From: Omnitrophica bacterium RIFCSPLOWO2_12_FULL_50_11
Lineage (GTDB): Bacteria > Omnitrophota > Omnitrophia > Omnitrophales > Danuiimicrobiaceae
Assembly: GCA_001804315.1 (NCBI GenBank)
Contig: MHFT01000010.1
Span: 1-24,904, forward strand
Direction: 5' to 3'
Length of the DNA: 24,904 bases
Program-made: the position numbers and the translations under genes
Notes under the pieces: generated by a model
Seen by the model: the letters and a program-made list of their open reading frames with translations, nothing else
Told to the model about the DNA's origin: nothing
The model's database searches: none
In this document: piece by piece, positions 9,501 through 24,904 of the stretch
How the letters are laid out: each line of letters begins with the position of its first letter
How positions within the stretch are numbered: position 1 is the stretch's first letter

Positions 9501-9505
9501 TCCGG

Positions 9506-9740
9506 TTTTCTCATCAATTTGGCGGATTGATGAGAAAATCGCTTTGGACGCACGAAGTTGCGTCCACATGCACGCACGGGATGATCGACATCCCGGCGTG
9601 CAGTGCTGGCCCATAAAGGGCCGGCAAAGTTTTGCGCCCCTCTCAAAACGGGGCGCAAAAGACAACCCCTGTGGTACAAATGGACAAGCCTATTTGCACC
9701 ACAACCTCTTCGAGGGCATTTCTCATTGGCGATGAGAAAT
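9506..9740. other. Cluster of six stem-loops in the convergent intergenic region (candidate structured RNA or protein-binding array)
   Basis: Hairpins at 9506-9538 (13-bp stem TTTTCTCATCAAT/ATTGATGAGAAAA), 9546-9565, 9571-9600, 9608-9622, 9630-9660 (11-bp stem TTTTGCGCCCC/GGGGCGCAAAA), 9705-9716 (CCTC-TTCG-GAGG) and 9718-9740 (ATTTCTCAT/ATGAGAAAT). Confidence 0.4.
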
Positions 9741-9753
9741 GCGGGTTAGCTGC

Positions 9754-12180
9754 TCAGGCCAAGCGTTCGAAAAACTTCGTTTCTAGTTCCTCGAGGCTTC
9801 TGAGAACTCCTGCGTAAGCGCGCCCGATGGCTTCCTCAAAACTTTTCCCCTTCGCCAGATACAAGATGAAACTGCGGAAACGACTTGCCCCGTACGTTTC
9901 AATCAGATACCGGACGAAAGCCTGCGATTCGCCGTAGTAAACGTTCGCTGCACCTCGAGTTTGCTGTTTGGGATCGACAATCGTGAGCAATTTGAGCGGG
10001 AGGAGCTTTCCTTGTGCCGCTGCCAGTTTGACGGCACGATTCAAGTCCTCTCGTTCCTCATCTTCCTGAGCAAGTGCGAAACCCTCGTGCAGCCACGTGG
10101 GCACGTTCCTATGTTCGCCGGTCAGCTCGTAAAGCACCAGATGCGCCACCTCGTGCGGAAGCGTCGAACTGAAAAAATGCCGCGATCCCAGGTACGTTGT
10201 GATCAACTTTTTTCCGTAATCGGCGTCACCTGCTGCCCAACTCGGTGCGCCACGTTTCTGTTGAAACATCTCCTGGTTCTCAAAAATAAAAATCCGAACG
10301 CGGCCGTCCTCCTGCCAACCTCGTTTCGGACCGTCATCATCCAATCGTTTCAAGATGCGGCCAAGATTTTCTTCGGCGTGCACCAAAACCTTCTGAGAAA
10401 GATCGAAATCTCTGGTCTTCAGGTAAACATTAAAGTGATCTCCCTTAAGCTCCACCCACTCATCTTCCCGTAACGGTTCCTCGTGTTCAGGTTTGATGTG
10501 CTCAAGAACACCGGAGTGCACAAGTAGGGACGGATCGGTCTCCTCCAAATCACGGTGGTGAAGCCTTGCGTCATCTTGAGAAAAGCACGGACAACTGAAC
10601 ACAAAGAGGGCGAAAAATAAAGACGCAAGTTGCCTTCCTCTCGTACGAGCAGAAACAATGGCAAAGGATACAATGAGAACGAACAAGCAAAAAAGAGGAA
10701 ACAAATGCCCACCCTGCTGGTACACCGTCCTCGCCCTTGGAAGCAGCACAGTACGCACGAGCCCGCCGGCGACAAATGTGTCATGCCTATGGGTGTCTTC
10801 AACACGATCGACGACCTCGCCTGTAAAACTCACAAAAGCAGAAACGCCGGTGTTCGCAGCGCGGACAACGGGCACCCCATTTTCAATGGCTCTAAAAATC
10901 GATGCTTGAAGATGTTGGTACGCTGCCGCACTCTTTGAAAACCAAGCGTCGTTGGTCAACACCACGAGAAACTGTGCTCCTCGTTCGACCGCCCGCCGCG
11001 CAAGCGACGGAAAAGTGTCCTCGAAGCAAATGAGCGGCGAAAAGCGCTTCGAATTTTCTAACACAAATACGCTCACATCTTCACCCGCCCGGTAATCCCC
11101 CACGCCGAGCGAATCCGCGAGGCGCTCCAAACCAAACATACCGAAAAACGGCCGCCACGGCACATATTCACCAAACGGAACCAAGCGGACTTTGTCGTAG
11201 CGCGCTTCGAGCCCGGATCCACGTTCCACCAGAAAAACGCTGTTGTAAGATCCTCCTAAAACATCCAAATAAGGACTTCCCAAAACCATCGGAACGTTGA
11301 GCTCTTTTTGAAATTTCAATATTTCCTCACGTTTCGGATCCAAATTAAAGTAACCTGGAAACGCAGCCTCGGGCCAAAGAATTAGCTCGGGCTTGTCATG
11401 TCCCACAAACCGCGTGAGGGCAAGGTGCGTTTCGAGAATCTCCGCTTTCCGTCCTGGATCCCATTTCACGTCCTGCGCAATATTTCCTTGAATCACCGCA
11501 AGTCGAATCTCATCTCCACGGACTGTTGGCTCGTTTCCACGACCAAGGAAAAAAGAACTCGCCAGGATGACAACGAGCGCACCAGTACCAACGGTACCAG
11601 GTACAGAAGGGACAGGTTCACCGAACCTGTCCCTTCTGTACCTGGTACCGAGAAACTGCACCACAAAAAAAATCCCAACATTGACAAACATGACGAGCCA
11701 CGAAACACCGAACGCCCCCACAAAAGCTGCGATCCGTGCAATGCCAAGGTTGGATGTCTGGCTGTACGCCAGTAAATTCCAGCCGAAACCCCAAACGGGA
11801 ATCTCGGTCCGCACCCACTCGAGAACAGCCCACGCCGATGGAATCAGAAAAAGAAAGGCGAAGCGCTGCTTCGATTTCCATACCGAACAAAACACAACGC
11901 CAAAGAGGCCAAAATAAAACGCGTACAAAAAAGCAACAAACACCCAGCCAAAGTACGTGACGTGACGAAGCCACTCCACAGAGGCAAAGAAAAAGAGGAA
12001 ACCCGTCAAGTAGAAGAAACTGAACGCATCGCGCACACGCTCAAGCCGCGCACTCAGACAGAAGATGGGTACAAAAGCAATCCAAGCGAGCCACGAAAAT
12101 GAGAATTTTGGAAAGGAAAGAATAAGGAGCAGAGCGGCGGTCAGCGAACAAACAGTGCCGTGGTACGCGTTTAGCGTCAC
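9754..12180 (-). CDS. lnt: Apolipoprotein N-acyltransferase (Lnt, CN-hydrolase) fused to an extra TM helix and a C-terminal ~290-aa HExxH zinc-peptidase-like (peptidase MA-like) domain
   Basis: N-terminal half: multi-TM region plus nitrilase-fold motifs IRLAVIQGNI, WPEAAFPGYF, SPLICFEDTFP, VLTNDAWFSKSAAAYQH, RAANTGVSAFV. Then a TM/signal-like LFFALFVFSCPCF. Then a soluble domain with HEVAHLVLYELTG ... WLHEGFALAQ (HExxH + EGxA). Proposed start is GTG at 12180 with SD GGGGGGGAGGAA. The ORF-track extension to 12336 overlaps secA and is unlikely. Confidence 0.8.
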   Translation of the reverse strand: MTLNAYHGTVCSLTAALLLILSFPKFSFSWLAWIAFVPIFCLSARLERVRDAFSFFYLTGFLFFFASVEWLRHVTYFGWVFVAFLYAFYFGLFGVVFCSVWKSKQRFAFLFLIPSAWAVLEWVRTEIPVWGFGWNLLAYSQTSNLGIARIAAFVGAFGVSWLVMFVNVGIFFVVQFLGTRYRRDRFGEPVPSVPGTVGTGALVVILASSFFLGRGNEPTVRGDEIRLAVIQGNIAQDVKWDPGRKAEILETHLALTRFVGHDKPELILWPEAAFPGYFNLDPKREEILKFQKELNVPMVLGSPYLDVLGGSYNSVFLVERGSGLEARYDKVRLVPFGEYVPWRPFFGMFGLERLADSLGVGDYRAGEDVSVFVLENSKRFSPLICFEDTFPSLARRAVERGAQFLVVLTNDAWFSKSAAAYQHLQASIFRAIENGVPVVRAANTGVSAFVSFTGEVVDRVEDTHRHDTFVAGGLVRTVLLPRARTVYQQGGHLFPLFCLFVLIVSFAIVSARTRGRQLASLFFALFVFSCPCFSQDDARLHHRDLEETDPSLLVHSGVLEHIKPEHEEPLREDEWVELKGDHFNVYLKTRDFDLSQKVLVHAEENLGRILKRLDDDGPKRGWQEDGRVRIFIFENQEMFQQKRGAPSWAAGDADYGKKLITTYLGSRHFFSSTLPHEVAHLVLYELTGEHRNVPTWLHEGFALAQEDEEREDLNRAVKLAAAQGKLLPLKLLTIVDPKQQTRGAANVYYGESQAFVRYLIETYGASRFRSFILYLAKGKSFEEAIGRAYAGVLRSLEELETKFFERLA
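11594..11649. repeat. Perfect 56-bp palindrome (27-bp arms GGTACCAGGTACAGAAGGGACAGGTTC / GAACCTGTCCCTTCTGTACCTGGTACC, 3-nt centre) lying in-frame inside the lnt CDS
   Basis: Read directly from the sequence. It encodes the polar peptide GTRYRRDRFGEPVPSVPGT between two hydrophobic Lnt segments. Confidence 0.9.
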
Positions 12181-12259
12181 TTCCTCCCCCCCTTGTTCGC
12201 CACAACGCGTTGGCGGAATCCGTCCCAAAACGCTTTGTGGCGAACAAGGGGGGGAGGAA
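12181..12259 (-). promoter_or_regulatory. Hairpin with a 25-bp perfect stem (TTCCTCCCCCCCTTGTTCGCCACAA ... TTGTGGCGAACAAGGGGGGGAGGAA, 29-nt loop) in the secA-lnt spacer; on the mRNA its 3' arm contains the lnt SD and abuts the GTG start
   Basis: Inverted repeat verified base by base. Minus-strand transcript reads 5'-UUCCUCCCCCCC...GGGGGGGAGGAA-GUG. Confidence 0.6.
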
Positions 12260-12293
12260 AAATCGCTAAACAGATACGTGCCGTGAAACACTT

Positions 12294-14957
12294 TTATCCG
12301 CCGTGGCACTTCTTGTACTTCTTTCCGCTTCCGCAAGGGCAGGGTTCGTTGCGGCCGATCTTAGCTTGACTTCGCCGAAAGGTCGCCGGACGGTCAGCCG
12401 ATTCTCGACGACGCCGGCCGCCAGTGTCAGGAACCGGCTCAGCCCCCGGAGCAAAATCATGTGTCCCTAGACGACCCATTTGCTGATCTTGCAGCAAGGC
12501 CGATGGCCCAACACCAGCGTCGAACCCGCTAGCTTCGGGATGCAGATATTCCTGGCGGCTTGGACTTATTACCGTCGACACTTTCTCCTCACGCACGGCT
12601 TGAACCTTGAAGAGGAACTCGATCGCCTCTTCCTTAATGGAAGAAACCATCTCCTCAAACATTTGAAACGACTCCTGCTTGTACTCGACGAGGGGATTGC
12701 GCTGGCCGTAGGCCCGGAGGTAAATCCCCTCGCGAAGCTCATCGATCGAACGAAGATGTTCTTTCCACTTGGAATCGATCACGTGAAGGAGAATGTAACG
12801 GCTTAAAAAGTGGATCCTGTCTTTTCCAAACTTTTCTTCCCGGCTCCGGTACGCTGCTTTTACTTTTTCAACGATTTCCTCCCGAAACGCGTCAAATGTG
12901 TCTTTCGTAAAATAAGGATCCTCCACGTCAATCCCACACTTCGCACGGAGCGCTGTTCTCAATCCTTCGCCGCTGCGTTCTTCTTCGCGGATCTCTGGGT
13001 TCATGTATTTCAGAATCAGCTCGTCGGCAAAATTTTCGATCATTTCGATCACGTGATCGGTCAAATCGGCGCTTTCCAGCACCCGGTTTCGTTCCTCGTA
13101 AATGATCTCTCTTTGCCGGTTCATCACGTCGTCGTATTCCAGAAGATGCTTGCGAATCTCAAAGTTTCGTCCTTCTACGCGCCTTTGTGCCGTTTCCACC
13201 GCGCGCGTGACAAGCGGATGCTGAATCTCCTGACCTTCCTCCATCCCAAGACGCTGCATCAAACCGGAAATCTTGTCCGATCCAAAAATCCGCATCAGAT
13301 CATCTTCAAGCGAAAGGTAAAACTTGGAGCTGCCAGGATCACCCTGCCGGCCTGTGCGGCCGCGCAGCTGATTGTCAATACGCCGCGCTTCATGCCGTTC
13401 CGTGCCCGTCACGGCCAAGCCCCCTTTTTGCGCCACACTTTCCCCCAAAACAATATCGGTCCCCCTGCCGGCCATGTTCGTCGCGATTGTAATCGCGCCC
13501 GGTTGACCTGCCCGCGCAACGATTTCGGCTTCCTGCTCGTGGTACTTGGCGTTCAGCACCGTGTGCGCAAGGCCGCGCCGCTTGAGCATTTGACTCAAGT
13601 GTTCCGACTTCTCGATGGATATCGTACCCACCAAAACCGGCCGGCTTTGGTTGTGAATCTCAGCAATTTCCTCGACGATCGCATTAAACTTTTCGCGTTC
13701 GGTGCGGTAAATGCAATCGGGGTGGTTGTGGCGGATGAGCGGCCGATTGGTTGGAATGACAAGCACCTCGAGCTTGTAAATTTTTTCGAATTCAGCCGCT
13801 TCGGTCGCCGCGGTTCCCGTCATACCGGCGAGTTTTTTGTACATGCGGAAATAATTCTGAAAGGTAATCGTTGCAAGCGTTTGATTTTCCCGCTCGATCT
13901 TGACGCGCTCTTTGGCTTCAAGCGCTTGATGCAGTCCATCCGAAAAGCGGCGTCCGGGCATTAAGCGCCCCGTAAACTCATCGACGATGACAACTTTGCC
14001 GTCCTTGACCATGTAATCCACGTCGCGCCTGAAAAGCACGTGCGCCCGAAGGGCTTGACTAATGTGGTGGATGACATCGATTTGCGTATTTTCATAAATA
14101 TTTTCAACATTCAAAAGCGACTCGCAGCGCGCAATTCCTTCTTCTTTGAGCGTCGCGGTATTCGCTTTTTCGTCCACCTCGTAATGGACACTTTTTTCGA
14201 GCCGTGGAATGATTCTGTCGATCTGGTAGTATTTTTCCGTCGACTCCTCAGCCGGACCAGAAATAATGAGCGGCGTTCGCGCTTCATCGACTAAGATGGA
14301 GTCGACTTCGTCTACAATCGCGTAATGAAGTTTGCGCTGGACGCGGTCACGCACATCGGTCACCATGTTGTCTCTTAGATAATCGAACCCAAATTCATTG
14401 TTCGTGCCGTAGGTAATGTCCGACTGGTATGCCAACTGACGCGCTGCTGGATCCATCTCGTGCTGAATGACGCCAACCGTTAAACCCAAAAATTCGTAGA
14501 TCGGTCCCATCCAAAACCGGTCTCGTTTGGCGAGGTAGTCATTGACGGTCACCAAATGAACCCCTTTCTCCGTGAGTGCGTTCAGATAAATGGGCAAGGT
14601 GGCGACGAGCGTTTTTCCTTCTCCAGTCGCCATCTCGGCAATCATGCCCCGATGAAGCGCCAGGCCGCCCACGAGCTGACAGTCAAAGTGCCGCATCTTG
14701 ATCGCTCGACGCGACGCTTCCCGGACGACTGCAAATGCTTCCGGAAGCAAATCGTCAAGCTTCTCGCCTTTTGACAAACGAGCGCGGAATTCGTCTGTTT
14801 TCGCCCGCAGCGCTTCGTCTGAAAGTGCTTTCACGGACGGCTCAAGCAAGTTGATTTGATCCACGACCGGCTGCATGCTTTTTAGGATCCGATCGTTTCG
14901 CGAACCGAAGACTTTGGTTAACACGGCGGCTGCGCCGCCAAGAATTTTCATCAACAT
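12294..14957 (-). CDS. secA: Preprotein translocase ATPase SecA (with C-terminal zinc-binding [14 protein letters not shown])
   Basis: [24 protein letters not shown]-terminus, DEAD-like motor motifs and the C-terminal Zn finger. It starts 14 bp downstream of the prfB stop. Confidence 0.95.
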
Positions 14958-16357: not shown

Positions 16358-16972
16358 TCATCCGGCCTTATTGCGGGAAAGGGTGACGCGCTCGTAGAAC
16401 CGAGAGCTAATCTGACGATCAAGCTGGCGGACCGACCACCCGCCGCGCAGGGCTTCCACTTCGTAGAACTTGCGTGCGTGAGCAGTCCTTACCGTAAGAA
16501 GCCGGACATAATGAGACCAGGAAAGTGGAAAAATGGCCGCAAGGGCTTCCACATCCAATTTACTCAATCGTGTTGAGGATTTCTCAACAGACACTCGAGA
16601 TTTGCTAGACACCGTCTGGCAGATTCGAGATTTGCGAGACAGTGTCTGGCCAATTTGAGCAGGCGGGTAGGACAGGTAAAATTCACGCATCTGCTGAAGA
16701 TTCTGACGTGAAAAGCCTCGGCCGAATTTTTTGGTTAAATCTCGCGACAGATTTTCAAGAATTGCTTCCCCATATTCAGCCCGCTTTCGGCCTTTTTGTT
16801 CGTATTCGACAACGCGCCGACTGATCTCCCAGTACGTAGCCGTCAATATGGCATTTACAGAGCCGGCAACTTGGTGCCTGGCTTCTTCCAGAAGCCGCTG
16901 AATTCCGCCGAGAAACCGCTGGTATCCCTGCAAAACAGATTCAGATTTTAACCGTTTCATAATGCGTGGCAT
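16358..16972 (-). pseudogene. Degenerate YhcG/DUF1016-family (PDDEXK nuclease) gene; the N-terminal domain is retained and the nuclease core is deleted
   Basis: The YhcG N-terminal domain pattern (RLLEEARHQVAGSVNAILTATYWEISRRVVEYEQ...YGEAILENLSRDLTKKFGRGFSRQNLQQMREFYLSYP ... LSWSHYVRLL...GWSVRQLDRQI) stops after ...FYER. Only about 260 bp remain before prfB. A possible C-terminal remnant (ELKRTRQQLE) sits just downstream in another frame. Likely start is M50 at 16972 (SD GGGAGG, 10-nt spacer). Confidence 0.55.
16596..16655. repeat. Two tandem copies of a 30-nt unit (CGAGATTTGCTAGACACCGTCTGGCAGATT / CGAGATTTGCGAGACAGTGTCTGGCCAATT) inside the DUF1016 remnant
   Basis: Direct repeat, 26/30 identical. 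It encodes a repeated QT(L/V)S(R/S)KSR(I/V) peptide. An adjacent hairpin TGTTGAGgatttCTCAACA lies at 16571-16589. Confidence 0.7.
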
Positions 16973-17237
16973 TTTAACATACCTCCCTTTGAGAATCCTG
17001 ATTTTTTGGTCTAGGATCATCGAGGATTCAGATAGAACTTTGAGGGAGGCGGGTCGCTTGGCAGGCCGAAGAACTCTTTCCTCCTGCACCGCCTTTAAAA
17101 AGCGGCAATATGAATCCAAGAAGAATTCGAGGATCTGTGCATCGATTCAGGGATACAATACTTTCGGCCCTCAGATCGTTGGCTCGCTCGGGAAAAGATA
17201 CCTCAGGGGAACAAACTCCGTAGCCGATAATAATCTT

Positions 17238-17825
17238 ATGAAGAAAATATGGTCATGCGGTTTGCTGATACTGTTAGTGGGATGTTCGGTTCAAAATCCA
17301 AAGGACACCGAACGGGCTATGGCAGTCGCAAGCGAGTTTATAACACTGCTTTATCAATCCAATGACAATGTAAGTCGAGCATTCGCTTTAACATCAAACA
17401 ATTATCAAGTGGTTTCAAATGAAGGAATGACCCGAACGCTGCGGGATGTCGCAGGCGAAATTGTCGGAAATTATCAAAGACACGATCAAGGTACCGATGT
17501 GACTCGTTTGCTCGCACCCGATGCACCTTCCAATGGAAGAGTTATACGGTTTAACGTTGCTTATGAAAACGACCCTGAAGGCCAGCTATTGGTTACCATG
17601 ATAAAAGAAGGCGGTGTGTGGAAGGTCATGGGCTTCAATATCAACTCTCCAAAAATTGCTGGCCTTCAGGGTGACCCTGAAGGCCAGCTATTGGTTACCA
17701 TGATAAAAGAAGGCGGTGTGTGGAAGGTCATGGGCTTCAATATCAACTCTCCAAAAATTGCTGAGAGCCAAGCACGAGGAACGCTGCAACAACCTCCTGG
17801 TGGCAACCCGACGACGGCAACGTAA
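17238..17825 (+). CDS. Lipoprotein (signal peptide MKKIWSCGLLILLVGC with lipobox) with an NTF2/DUF4878-like fold and an internal perfect tandem duplication
   Basis: ATG at 17238 is preceded by a -10-like GATAAT 6 nt upstream. It has a lipobox LVGC. The ORF-track 5' extension to 16962 lacks coding signal. Confidence 0.65.
   Translation: MKKIWSCGLLILLVGCSVQNPKDTERAMAVASEFITLLYQSNDNVSRAFALTSNNYQVVSNEGMTRTLRDVAGEIVGNYQRHDQGTDVTRLLAPDAPSNGRVIRFNVAYENDPEGQLLVTMIKEGGVWKVMGFNINSPKIAGLQGDPEGQLLVTMIKEGGVWKVMGFNINSPKIAESQARGTLQQPPGGNPTTAT
17571..17763 (+). repeat. In-frame tandem duplication, period 102 bp (34 aa), two units 100% identical over 91 nt
   Basis: gaccctgaaggccagctattggttaccatgataaaagaaggcggtgtgtggaaggtcatgggcttcaatatcaactctccaaaaattgctg occurs at 17571-17661 and again at 17673-17763. 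It encodes DPEGQLLVTMIKEGGVWKVMGFNINSPKIA twice. Confidence 0.95.
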
Positions 17826-20880: not shown

Positions 20881-20916
20881 CAATTTTCGGAGCGCTCCGA
20901 AAATTGTGTTATTTTG
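20881..20916 (+). terminator. Candidate intrinsic terminator of the island operon: perfect 26-bp palindrome CAATTTTCGGAGC/GCTCCGAAAATTG followed by TGTTATTTTG
   Basis: It begins 5 nt after the stop at 20876. Stem plus T-rich tract. Confidence 0.5.
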
Positions 20917-24404: not shown

Positions 24405-24437
24405 CCAAAACTGTAGGGGCGCCCCTTGTGGGCGCCC
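24405..24437 (-). terminator. GC hairpin (GGGCGCCC-CTTGT-GGGCGCCC) between convergent rpsT and holA. The U-tract is on the minus strand, so this is a likely holA terminator and possibly bidirectional.
   Basis: 8-bp all-GC stem at 24417-24437. The minus-strand flank is UACAGUUUUGG. Confidence 0.45.
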
Positions 24438-24473
24438 GAGATGACAGCGAACGGACGCGCACAAGGCCCGCCC

Positions 24474-24904
24474 CTACGATTGCCCAACAGTGGCGAGGAA
24501 TGTTTCCATCGCAATCGTAGGCTCGCAGGCGCCGGTTTTGACCTTCCAATCAGTTTCCCACAGTTCGTTGAGAAGCTGCTCGAGTGTTTCGAGGTCAAAC
24601 TGTCGCACTTGATTGAGGAACACTTGAAGGCGAAAAGGCGGAATCCTGACCGCCCGAGCGACGTCGTCGCGGCTTCCCCCACGCGCCAAAATTTTCTTTG
24701 CCTGCCAAATCCGCTTAAGCTGCCAATGGATGAGCCCAATGGTACTGACCACATCACCGCTTAAATCACAGAAATAATGCAAAATCTTGATCGCTTCGCT
24801 CGTATCCTTCCGGGCAAGTGCATCAGCCAAATCAAACGGTTCATACCGGAGCCATTCGATCGCGAGTTTTTCGACCGCTCTTTCATCAATGGTCTCACCG
24901 TCCG
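24474..24904 (-). CDS. holA: DNA polymerase III delta subunit, C-terminal part (5' end beyond the window)
   Basis: The C-terminal region ...LKRIWQAKKILARGGSRDDVARAVRIPPFRLQVFLNQVRQFDLETLEQLLNELWETDWKVKTG is typical of HolA. It is convergent with rpsT, a common neighbourhood. Confidence 0.7.
   Translation of the reverse strand, partial: DGETIDERAVEKLAIEWLRYEPFDLADALARKDTSEAIKILHYFCDLSGDVVSTIGLIHWQLKRIWQAKKILARGGSRDDVARAVRIPPFRLQVFLNQVRQFDLETLEQLLNELWETDWKVKTGACEPTIAMETFLATVGQS

What the first reader, a model, noticed from the sequence alone, without database searches (positions are those of the whole stretch)
11594..11649. Perfect 56-bp palindrome embedded in-frame inside the lnt coding sequence
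GGTACCAGGTACAGAAGGGACAGGTTC-ACC-GAACCTGTCCCTTCTGTACCTGGTACC has 27-bp arms with 100% complementarity. It lies within the Lnt ORF and is read through as GTRYRRDRFGEPVPSVPGT. It sits exactly between two hydrophobic stretches (…IFFVVQFLG | insert | VGTGALVVILASSFFLG…).

Protein-level selection cannot maintain a perfect palindrome. This looks like a recent in-frame insertion of a palindromic element, comparable to Rickettsia palindromic elements or Correia elements, into a tolerated loop of an essential lipoprotein-maturation enzyme. Alternatively it is a nucleic-acid-level signal such as an RNase III site or a cruciform.

The secA-lnt spacer carries a second, unrelated long perfect hairpin 530 bp away, which makes the locus doubly unusual.
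Basis: seen in the sequence. Interest (0 to 1): 0.7.

Follow-up and report, generated by a model that had tools for sequence, protein, structure and literature searches.

The report
Hairpin-forming inverted duplication inside lnt
A perfect 59-bp DNA hairpin inside an essential lipoprotein-maturation gene of an uncultured groundwater bacterium is most likely a recent copying accident that pasted a reversed copy of about eight neighbouring codons into a tolerant protein loop, not a mobile element or a proven signal.

Summary
The palindrome is real in the sequence and slightly larger than reported: 28-nt arms (11592-11619 / 11623-11650), 100% complementary, 3-nt loop, far beyond chance. It is read through in frame on the minus strand inside lnt. 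The window is a whole contig of the Rifle aquifer MAG Omnitrophica bacterium RIFCSPLOWO2_12_FULL_50_11.

It is not an inserted palindromic element. No second copy was found in the contig or in three public collections. One arm encodes the conserved basic loop after TM6 (GTRYRRDRF, matching xTRKKSE in relatives). Only the other arm (EPVPSVPG, 7-10 codons) is extra.

Deleting 24 nt (11596-11619) restores an ortholog-like length and leaves a 7-nt inverted repeat, CGGTACC...GGTACCG, that could prime a replication template switch. This is the known "1-4-3-2" type of event that creates a perfect hairpin in one step.

An independent MEGAHIT assembly is identical over 7.9 kb except for 16 differences confined to 11584-11633. 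Twelve of its 13 substitutions copy a neighbouring base, the Illumina dephasing signature at inverted repeats. That supports a physical hairpin.

An artefact is not excluded. No evidence of function was found. Ordinary-to-mildly interesting: a new instance of a known mutational process.

The parts
11592..11650 (.). Perfect palindrome: 28-nt arms with a 3-nt loop (59 bp)
   Evidence: the repeat finder I2; own scan; RNA and DNA folds
11623..11650 (-). Native arm. On the coding (minus) strand it reads CGGTACCAGGTACAGAAGGGACAGGTTC and encodes (L)GTRYRRDRF, the conserved basic cytoplasmic loop after TM6
   Evidence: Aligns with xTRKKSE / QNRGKTG / HRGRDRK of the closest orthologues; translation
11596..11619 (-). 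Inferred new material: 24 nt, the exact reverse complement of 11623-11646, encoding EPVPSVPG. Placement is ambiguous by 3 nt (11596-11619 to 11599-11622). In-frame alternatives of 21-30 nt are not excluded
   Evidence: Reconstruction script. Distance from the anchor N to the TM7 block is 39 residues against a mode of 32 in 119 orthologues
11620..11622 (.). 3-nt loop (ACC on +, GGT on the coding strand = Gly)
11592..11598 (.). CGGTACC. With GGTACCG at 11644-11650 it forms the 7-nt inverted repeat (containing KpnI sites) that would have flanked a 21-nt spacer in the reconstructed ancestor. This is the candidate priming microhomology for the template switch
   Evidence: Reconstructed ancestor CAACGGTACCGAACCTGTCCCTTCTGTACCTGGTACCGAG; inference
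9754..12180 (-). lnt (apolipoprotein N-acyltransferase) fused to a Peptidase_MA_2 domain. The probable start is GTG 12180, behind a GGAGG Shine-Dalgarno sequence. GenBank OGX06736.1 starts at ATG 12291
   Evidence: Pfam LNT_N 8.8e-30, CN_hydrolase 3.3e-25, Peptidase_MA_2 3.5e-16; PDB Lnt hits at E about 1e-25; cluster member P0121
11665..11672 (-). U8 run on the mRNA (codons AUU UUU UUU = in-frame U UUU UUU), 14 nt upstream of the main stem. The -1 frame ends at a UGA in the hairpin loop
   Evidence: Any functional link is speculative

Best explanation
The palindrome is a real, evolutionarily recent inverted duplication made by a short-range template switch during DNA replication or repair.

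Proposed ancestor (inferred). The ancestral lnt encoded ...FLGTRYRRDRFGTVGTGALVV... from ...C GGTACC AGGTACAGAAGGGACAGGTTC GGTACC G.... That is a 7-nt inverted repeat (CGGTACC / GGTACCG) around a 21-nt spacer.

Proposed event (inferred). A nascent 3' end ending in CGGTACC paired with the other GGTACCG on the opposite strand. It copied the spacer backwards and then returned to its template. This inserted about 24 nt (7-10 codons) that are the exact reverse complement of the neighbouring native codons. A 7-bp quasi-palindrome became a 28-bp perfect one in a single event, type '1-4-3-2' in the four-point model.

Why it survives (inferred). The insertion kept the reading frame and contained no stop codon. 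It landed in the length-variable cytoplasmic TM6-TM7 loop of Lnt, away from the periplasmic catalytic domain, so the enzyme tolerates it.

The palindrome has no dedicated function. Any effects on the mRNA (ribosome slowing, RNase III sensitivity) would be side effects.

Shown: the palindrome, its uniqueness, which arm is native, the extra length, the structural location, and the error signature in a second assembly. Inferred: the ancestral sequence, the switch mechanism, recency and neutrality.
For: - The inserted 24 nt equal the reverse complement of the sequence 3 nt away. Removing them leaves an intact 853-codon ORF with an ortholog-like loop.
- The coding-direction first arm aligns with the conserved basic motif of the closest orthologues. 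The second arm aligns with gaps. Loop length is 39 against a mode of 32.
- No other copy was found anywhere searched.
- Relatives with insertions at the same loop have no DNA palindrome, so the hairpin is lineage-specific and not conserved.
- The AF2 model (pLDDT 90.9) puts the extra residues in the least confident, non-helical stretch between two TM helices. TM7 leads straight into the nitrilase domain, so this loop is on the opposite, cytoplasmic face. In E. coli Lnt the equivalent loop is the short KRNWRP.
- Independent MEGAHIT contig L001 is identical over about 7.9 kb, except for 16 differences all within 11584-11633, with a length difference of 1 nt. Twelve of 13 substitutions are to a neighbouring base (p about 4e-5). 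This is the pattern described for Illumina dephasing at inverted repeats (PMC3141275). A molecule spanning both flanks and a hairpin of this length was therefore sequenced independently.
- The contig comes from a read-mapping-curated assembly (PMC5079060).
- Template switching is documented to create perfect hairpins in one event, in bacteria and eukaryotes (PMC5453318; PMC8794818; PMC7202029).
Against: - No ancestral allele lacking the insertion was found. The nearest orthologue is only 58% identical in protein, so the event is reconstructed, not observed.
- The return junction has no microhomology. Alternatively, a 27-nt insertion followed by a 3-nt central deletion must be assumed.
- Raw reads were not available.
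- The same contig carries a second fold-back junction (17654-17692, with a 102-nt tandem duplication) that two other assemblies lack. This shows that the assembly or its library can contain unreproduced fold-back structures.
- Only two assemblies cover the site, and they may share samples.
- Perfect symmetry could also be maintained by repeated template switching, so recency is not proven.
Confidence: 0.6

Rival explanations
1. Sequencing or assembly artefact. The genome has no perfect palindrome here, or only a shorter or imperfect one. The perfect symmetry was produced by fold-back chimeric reads, by de Bruijn-graph collapse of the two arms, or by the Velvet local re-assembly step used to curate these MAGs.
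For: - The only other assembly covering the site (L001) disagrees with the window exactly here and is frameshifted.
- The same contig has another fold-back junction with a 102-nt duplication that is absent from L001 and L003.
- Other assemblies break or turn chimeric at hairpins in this region: L003 and L004 at 12169-12271, and L001 ends at 9550 beside hairpin 9503-9541.
- Curation included local Velvet re-assembly.
- The MAG name suggests coverage of only about 11x (naming convention, my inference).
Against: - L001 has the same length (+1 nt), and its differences are neighbour-base smears of the window's sequence, including through the centre. It therefore reads the same template rather than a palindrome-free allele.
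- A clean ancestral path, if present, should have been preferred by MEGAHIT.
- The 59-bp structure is shorter than the 150-nt reads and than k = 100.
- The window's version preserves the frame and has no stop, whereas L001's does not.
- L001 differs from the window by a SNP elsewhere, which suggests a different sample.
Confidence: 0.17
2. A selected nucleic-acid signal, whatever its mutational origin. Candidates are an mRNA hairpin serving as an RNase III site, a translational pause or -1 frameshift stimulator downstream of the in-frame U UUU UUU run, or a cruciform or protein-binding DNA site tuning Lnt dosage.
For: - The 28-bp perfect stem at -66 kcal/mol exceeds the roughly 20 bp of dsRNA generally needed by RNase III (established knowledge).
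- An in-frame slippery U8 run lies 14 nt upstream, and the -1 frame stops at a UGA in the loop.
- A second very strong hairpin sequesters the lnt Shine-Dalgarno sequence and start codon 530 nt upstream.
Against: - There is no conservation. Relatives have no palindrome at this site.
- No Rfam family reaches threshold. Only generic sub-threshold miRNA-hairpin matches appear.
- There is no U-tract, so it is not a terminator.
- The spacing to the slippery run (14 nt) is longer than the canonical 5-9 nt.
- Perfect symmetry with zero compensated changes gives no covariation evidence.
Confidence: 0.08
3. In-frame insertion of a mobile palindromic element (RPE-like, Correia/MITE-like or REP-like).
For: It is in frame, lies in a tolerated loop, and has palindromic termini.
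Against: - It is single-copy in everything searchable.
- One arm is native coding sequence.
- Only 21-30 nt are new.
- There is no target-site duplication.
- It is far shorter than RPE (about 100-150 bp) or Correia (about 100-155 bp) elements (sizes from established knowledge).
Confidence: 0.03

Closest known systems
Template-switch mutations (quasipalindrome-associated mutations; four-point model type 1-4-3-2). Sources: Ripley 1982; Dutra & Lovett 2006; Loytynoja & Goldman 2017 (PMC5453318); Monttinen & Loytynoja 2022 (PMC8794818)
   Same: The new sequence is an exact reverse complement of adjacent sequence. A short pre-existing inverted repeat can prime the switch. A perfect hairpin of tens of bases is created in one step. 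It can occur in coding sequence and add residues (compare yeast, PMC8604942).
   Different: The ancestral allele was not observed here. The classical bacterial cases correct existing near-perfect repeats by a few bases, whereas this one would extend a 7-bp repeat to 28 bp by copying the spacer. The return junction lacks microhomology.
Rickettsia palindromic elements (RPE)
   Same: Palindromic DNA read through in frame inside an essential gene, adding a peptide segment in a tolerated position.
   Different: RPEs are multi-copy families of about 100-150 bp that are wholly foreign to the host gene. This is single-copy and 59 bp, and half of it is the gene's own conserved sequence.
Correia elements / MITEs / REP-BIME
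   Same: Short inverted-repeat DNA able to form hairpins and to be RNase III substrates when transcribed.
   Different: Those are dispersed repeats with target-site duplications (TA for Correia) and are mostly intergenic. None of these features is present here.
Illumina sequence-specific errors at inverted repeats (Nakamura et al. 2011, PMC3141275)
   Same: This explains the aberrant version of the locus in the second assembly. Miscalls copy preceding or neighbouring bases, start inside the repeat, and run in one direction.
   Different: It concerns the L001 contig, not the window's sequence itself.

Membership tests
Template-switch-generated inverted repeat (TSM / quasipalindrome mutation) | The novel segment is the exact reverse complement of a nearby segment | tested here: met
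   11596-11619 equals the reverse complement of 11623-11646, 24/24
Template-switch-generated inverted repeat (TSM / quasipalindrome mutation) | Comparison with a closely related (ancestral) sequence shows a cluster of changes or an indel explained by one switch event | not testable with these tools
   No close relative exists. The best orthologue has 58% protein identity. Only length and motif comparison was possible
Template-switch-generated inverted repeat (TSM / quasipalindrome mutation) | Pre-existing short inverted repeat or microhomology at the switch points | tested here: inconclusive
   The reconstructed ancestor has CGGTACC/GGTACCG (7 nt) at the first switch. There is no microhomology at the return. 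The reconstruction is not unique (21-30 nt)
Rickettsia palindromic element-like insertion | Member of a multi-copy dispersed repeat family | tested here: not met
   No second copy in the window, GTDB representatives, JGI metagenomes, IMG/VR, 89 fetched loci or plasmids. Caveat: the other contigs of this MAG could not be searched
Rickettsia palindromic element-like insertion | The whole element is an insertion relative to orthologues | tested here: not met
   One arm encodes the conserved basic loop present in orthologues. Only about 7-8 residues are extra
Rickettsia palindromic element-like insertion | Read through in frame without disrupting the host protein | tested here: met
   The ORF is continuous, and the nearly invariant Lnt columns, including WPE, YDK and CFE, are present
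Correia / MITE | Terminal inverted repeats flanked by a target-site duplication (TA for Correia) | tested here: not met
   The flanks are ...CCAA|CGGTACC...GGTACCG|AGAA... with no direct repeat
Intrinsic terminator | G+C-rich hairpin followed by a U-tract | tested here: not met
   Not called by the scan. No T-run follows on either strand
Known RNA family (Rfam) | Score at or above the gathering threshold | tested here: not met
   0 hits at gathering threshold. Only sub-threshold eukaryotic miRNA-precursor models, i.e. generic hairpins
-1 programmed ribosomal frameshift cassette | In-frame X XXY YYZ slippery heptamer | tested here: met
   AUU UUU UUU in the lnt frame
-1 programmed ribosomal frameshift cassette | Stimulatory structure 5-9 nt downstream, conserved among relatives | tested here: not met
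   The main stem starts 14 nt downstream. Relatives have no hairpin here
RNase III substrate | About 20 bp or more of uninterrupted dsRNA; cleavage in vivo | not testable with these tools
   A 28-bp perfect stem is predicted. Cleavage requires 5'-end mapping

The most novel reading that the evidence does not exclude
The hairpin is not a neutral scar but a newly born cis-regulatory element created by template switching. It would be a 28-bp mRNA stem placed 14 nt after an in-frame U UUU UUU run, with the -1 frame ending at a UGA in its loop. It would act with the Shine-Dalgarno-sequestering hairpin upstream of lnt to set Lnt dosage by ribosome pausing or frameshifting, or by RNase III cleavage. 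A related reading is that this Omnitrophota lineage has unusually active fold-back mutagenesis that adds in-frame peptide segments to proteins.
Probability: 0.06. Interest if true: 0.6.

Novelty: new member of a known kind. Interest (0 to 1): 0.27.

Why it matters
If real, this is a clean natural bacterial example of one template-switch event doing two things at once. It creates a long perfect hairpin, and it adds about eight residues to an essential membrane enzyme. That illustrates how non-B DNA mutagenesis can generate protein insertions and potential RNA structures de novo.

Practically, it is a caution for MAG users. Strong hairpins are places where independent assemblies of the same population disagree, frameshift or break. 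An error-laden contig there produced a truncated lnt gene call (P0001).

It does not open a new biological question by itself.

Tried and rejected
- Mobile-element hypothesis. I searched the arm or sub-arm in the window, GTDB representative genomes, JGI metagenomes, IMG/VR, all fetched loci and plasmids. Only two chance matches in unrelated contexts appeared. Rejected.
- Known RNA families. Rfam at gathering threshold gave nothing. The permissive search gave only generic miRNA-hairpin matches. Rejected.
- Terminator. There is no U-tract. Rejected.
- A hot spot for palindromic insertions in the TM6-TM7 loop. I fetched DNA of three orthologues with insertions there plus the closest orthologue. 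No palindromes were found. Rejected.
- The variant in contig L001 as a real ancestral or diverged allele. Rejected because the flanks are 100% identical, the allele is frameshifted, and 12 of 13 substitutions copy a neighbouring base.
- A mixture of two orientations of an invertible 21-nt segment mis-joined by the assembler. Rejected by inspection: the junction GGTTC-ACC-GAACC exists in neither orientation, and L001 reads through the centre.
- Search for more assemblies or closer relatives covering the site. An N-terminal protein search found nothing above 59% identity. Contigs carrying the identical SecA end in the spacer hairpin. The genome-contig scan found no same-species genome. This was a dead end, so the ancestral state could not be observed.
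- Protelomerase, dif or recombinase sites were considered from memory only. Such sites are not expected inside a CDS, and this palindrome has an asymmetric 3-nt centre. Not pursued.
Full report
**Observation**

The window carries a perfect inverted repeat with 28-nt arms (11592-11619 and 11623-11650) and a 3-nt loop, 59 bp in total.

It is far outside chance.
- In 30 dinucleotide-preserving shuffles the longest perfect stem with a loop of 20 nt or less was 12.
- In 352 kb from 83 related lnt loci the longest was 16.
- The arm has no third match in the window even with 3 mismatches.
- As RNA it folds at -66.3 kcal/mol (z = -10.3). As single-stranded DNA it folds at -35.8 kcal/mol (z = -14).

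**Context**

The palindrome lies on the minus strand inside ORF 9754..12336. Pfam identifies this ORF as LNT_N plus CN_hydrolase (Lnt) with a C-terminal Peptidase_MA_2 domain. Solved Lnt structures match at E of about 1e-25. secA lies immediately upstream.

The reading frame passes through the palindrome as ...FFVVQFLGTRYRRDRFGEPVPSVPGTVGTGALVVILA....

An exact look-up shows the window is the entire 24,904-bp contig that encodes OGX06736.1 of 'Omnitrophica bacterium RIFCSPLOWO2_12_FULL_50_11'. This is a Rifle aquifer MAG. It was assembled from 150-bp Illumina pairs with IDBA-UD (k 40-100). It was curated by read mapping with local Velvet re-assembly (PMC5079060).

**Is it a mobile palindromic element?**

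No further copy of the arm or of sub-arms was found.
- GTDB representative genomes: none.
- JGI metagenomes: one chance 19-mer in an unrelated high-GC contig.
- IMG/VR: one chance 18-mer with no palindrome.
- The 89 fetched loci and plasmids: none.

There is no target-site duplication.

More importantly, the palindrome is not all insert. In an alignment of 120 Lnt proteins, the first arm in coding direction (GTRYRRDRF) aligns with the conserved basic motif that follows TM6 in the closest Omnitrophota orthologues (RTRKKSE, QNRGKTG, HRGRDRK). The second arm (EPVPSVPG) aligns with gaps.

The distance from the invariant Asn of TM6 to the TM7 block is 39 residues here, against a mode of 32 in 119 orthologues. 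Only about 7-8 residues are extra.

The RPE/Correia interpretation therefore fails three of its defining features: copy number, whole-element insertion, and size or target-site duplication. It meets only the in-frame feature.

**Reconstruction**

Removing 24 nt at + 11596-11619 has several consequences.
- These 24 nt are exactly the reverse complement of 11623-11646, which lies 3 nt away.
- An intact ORF remains, encoding ...FLGTRYRRDRFGTVGTGALVV..., with an ortholog-like loop.
- The resulting 'ancestor' reads CGGTACC-21 nt-GGTACCG. This is a 7-nt inverted repeat built on two KpnI sites around a 21-nt spacer.

A nascent strand ending in CGGTACC can pair with the other GGTACCG on the opposite strand. 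It can then copy the spacer in reverse and return to its template.

In the four-point model this is a 1-4-3-2 event, the class that creates inverted repeats (PMC5453318). Such events are documented to create perfect stems in a single step (PMC8794818). They have long been studied at quasipalindromes in E. coli (PMC7202029).

Two caveats apply.
- The reconstruction is not unique. In-frame solutions of 21-30 nt exist.
- The return junction has no microhomology, unless a 27-nt insertion was followed by a 3-nt central deletion.

**Is it physically real?**

Only one other public assembly covers the site: ENA ERZ4903185 k141_3645438 (L001). It is 100% identical to the window over about 7.9 kb, except for 16 differences that all fall within 11584-11633.

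In L001 the region is 1 nt longer, which frameshifts lnt. That explains the truncated 642-aa gene call P0001.

The differences are not biological-looking. Twelve of 13 substitutions change a base to its neighbour's identity (p of about 4e-5 under random substitution). They nearly double the homopolymer content.

My reading, which is an inference, is that MEGAHIT bridged a coverage gap with a poor read that traversed a real hairpin. That read still has the same length and the same underlying sequence, including the centre. This argues that flank-palindrome-flank exists on single molecules in a sample that also differs by a SNP elsewhere.

Against this, the window carries another fold-back junction. 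At 17654-17692, 19-nt arms join two copies of a 102-nt in-frame tandem duplication. L001 and L003 lack this structure. In addition, other assemblies break or turn chimeric at the spacer hairpin.

I therefore keep about 17% on an artefact.

**Location in the protein**

An AlphaFold2 model built from 60 homologues has mean pLDDT 90.9 and pTM 0.92. Numbering below is from the GTG at 12180.
- A helix spans residues 151-179 (TM6).
- A non-helical stretch spans 180-192 and has the lowest confidence in the protein (block means 61-72).
- A helix spans 193-212 (TM7) and leads directly into the nitrilase domain.

The extra residues E188-G195 form the end of that loop and the first turn of TM7. Because TM7 exits to the periplasmic catalytic domain, the loop is on the cytoplasmic face. 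This fits its Arg-rich sequence. In E. coli Lnt the equivalent loop is the short KRNWRP.

Several Omnitrophota Lnt proteins have unrelated insertions of 8-40 residues at this exact point, so the site tolerates length changes. Their DNA shows no palindrome there. The hairpin is therefore lineage-specific and not conserved.

**Function**

I found nothing that indicates a selected nucleic-acid role.
- No U-tract follows the hairpin.
- No Rfam family reaches threshold. Sub-threshold hits are generic eukaryotic miRNA hairpin models.
- There is no conservation.

A 28-bp perfect stem would be a good RNase III substrate (established knowledge). An in-frame U UUU UUU run lies 14 nt upstream, and the -1 frame ends at a UGA in the loop. 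However, the spacing is longer than canonical frameshift cassettes, and nothing supports selection. I treat these as possible side effects and as the basis of the low-probability novel reading.

**Verdict**

The best explanation (about 0.6) is a recent template-switch inverted duplication of native codons, tolerated in the cytoplasmic TM6-TM7 loop and without dedicated function.

It is a new instance of a known mutational mechanism. Interest is modest (0.27). Its main value is as a clean bacterial example and as a warning about hairpin-associated assembly errors in MAGs.

Noticed in passing
window 12169-12271 (secA-lnt spacer, minus strand): A very strong hairpin: 43-nt arms, 88% complementary, 25 nt of them perfect, -88 kcal/mol as RNA with z = -10.5. 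Its 3' arm contains the lnt Shine-Dalgarno sequence (GGGGGGGAGGAA) and the GTG start at 12180. Its 5' arm is an anti-SD copy (TTCCTCCCCCCC). Long hairpins just upstream of lnt recur with unrelated sequences in other Omnitrophota (L015 1350-1426, L064 1392-1478, L017, L049). This suggests a recurrent secA terminator or an lnt translational control element.
   Followed up: partly
window 17571-17774 (inside + strand ORF 16962..17825): A 102-nt (34-codon, in-frame) tandem duplication relative to two independent assemblies, L001 and L003. The copies are joined by an 11-nt inverted copy of the unit's start. This makes a 15-nt perfect (19-nt at 95%) palindrome with a 1-nt loop at 17654-17692. It is either a second template-switch or structural variant, or a mis-assembly in this contig.
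   Followed up: partly
L001 10001-11929; L003 6700-6791; L004 end; L001 end (= window 9550): Other public assemblies of the same population fail at hairpins. L001 is error-laden and frameshifted at the lnt palindrome, giving a truncated lnt call (P0001). L003 turns chimeric at the C7/G7 tract of the spacer hairpin. L004 ends inside it. L001 ends beside hairpin 9503-9541.
   Followed up: partly
window 9754-10620 (minus strand): Lnt is fused in one ORF to a C-terminal Peptidase_MA_2 domain (HEVAH motif), preceded by an extra hydrophobic segment. The same fusion occurs in P0002 and P0003. In L008 the peptidase is a separate downstream gene, so a conserved lnt-peptidase_MA linkage exists in some Omnitrophota.
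   Followed up: partly
window 12181-12291 (minus strand): The GenBank protein OGX06736.1 (845 aa) starts at ATG 12291 and translates the spacer hairpin (MFHGTYLFSDFSSPPCSPQ...). Homologues begin near GTG 12180, which follows a GGAGG. The deposited start is probably about 37 codons too far upstream.
   Followed up: partly
L011 1606-1633 (lnt of Omnitrophica bacterium RIFCSPLOWO2_01_FULL_45_10b): Another perfect palindrome inside an lnt coding sequence of a different Rifle Omnitrophica: AAAACGCCGCGCTTAAGCGCGGCGTTTT, 14+14 nt with no loop. It encodes KTPRLSAAF in a loop near the N-terminus and shows no length change relative to the window's protein.
   Followed up: no
window 24413-24477, 20881-20906 and 2378-2406: Further inverted repeats not examined. 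One is a GC-rich 26-nt-arm repeat (85%) near the contig end. One is a 13+13 zero-loop perfect palindrome, CAATTTTCGGAGCGCTCCGAAAATTG. One is a 13-nt-stem hairpin.
   Followed up: no
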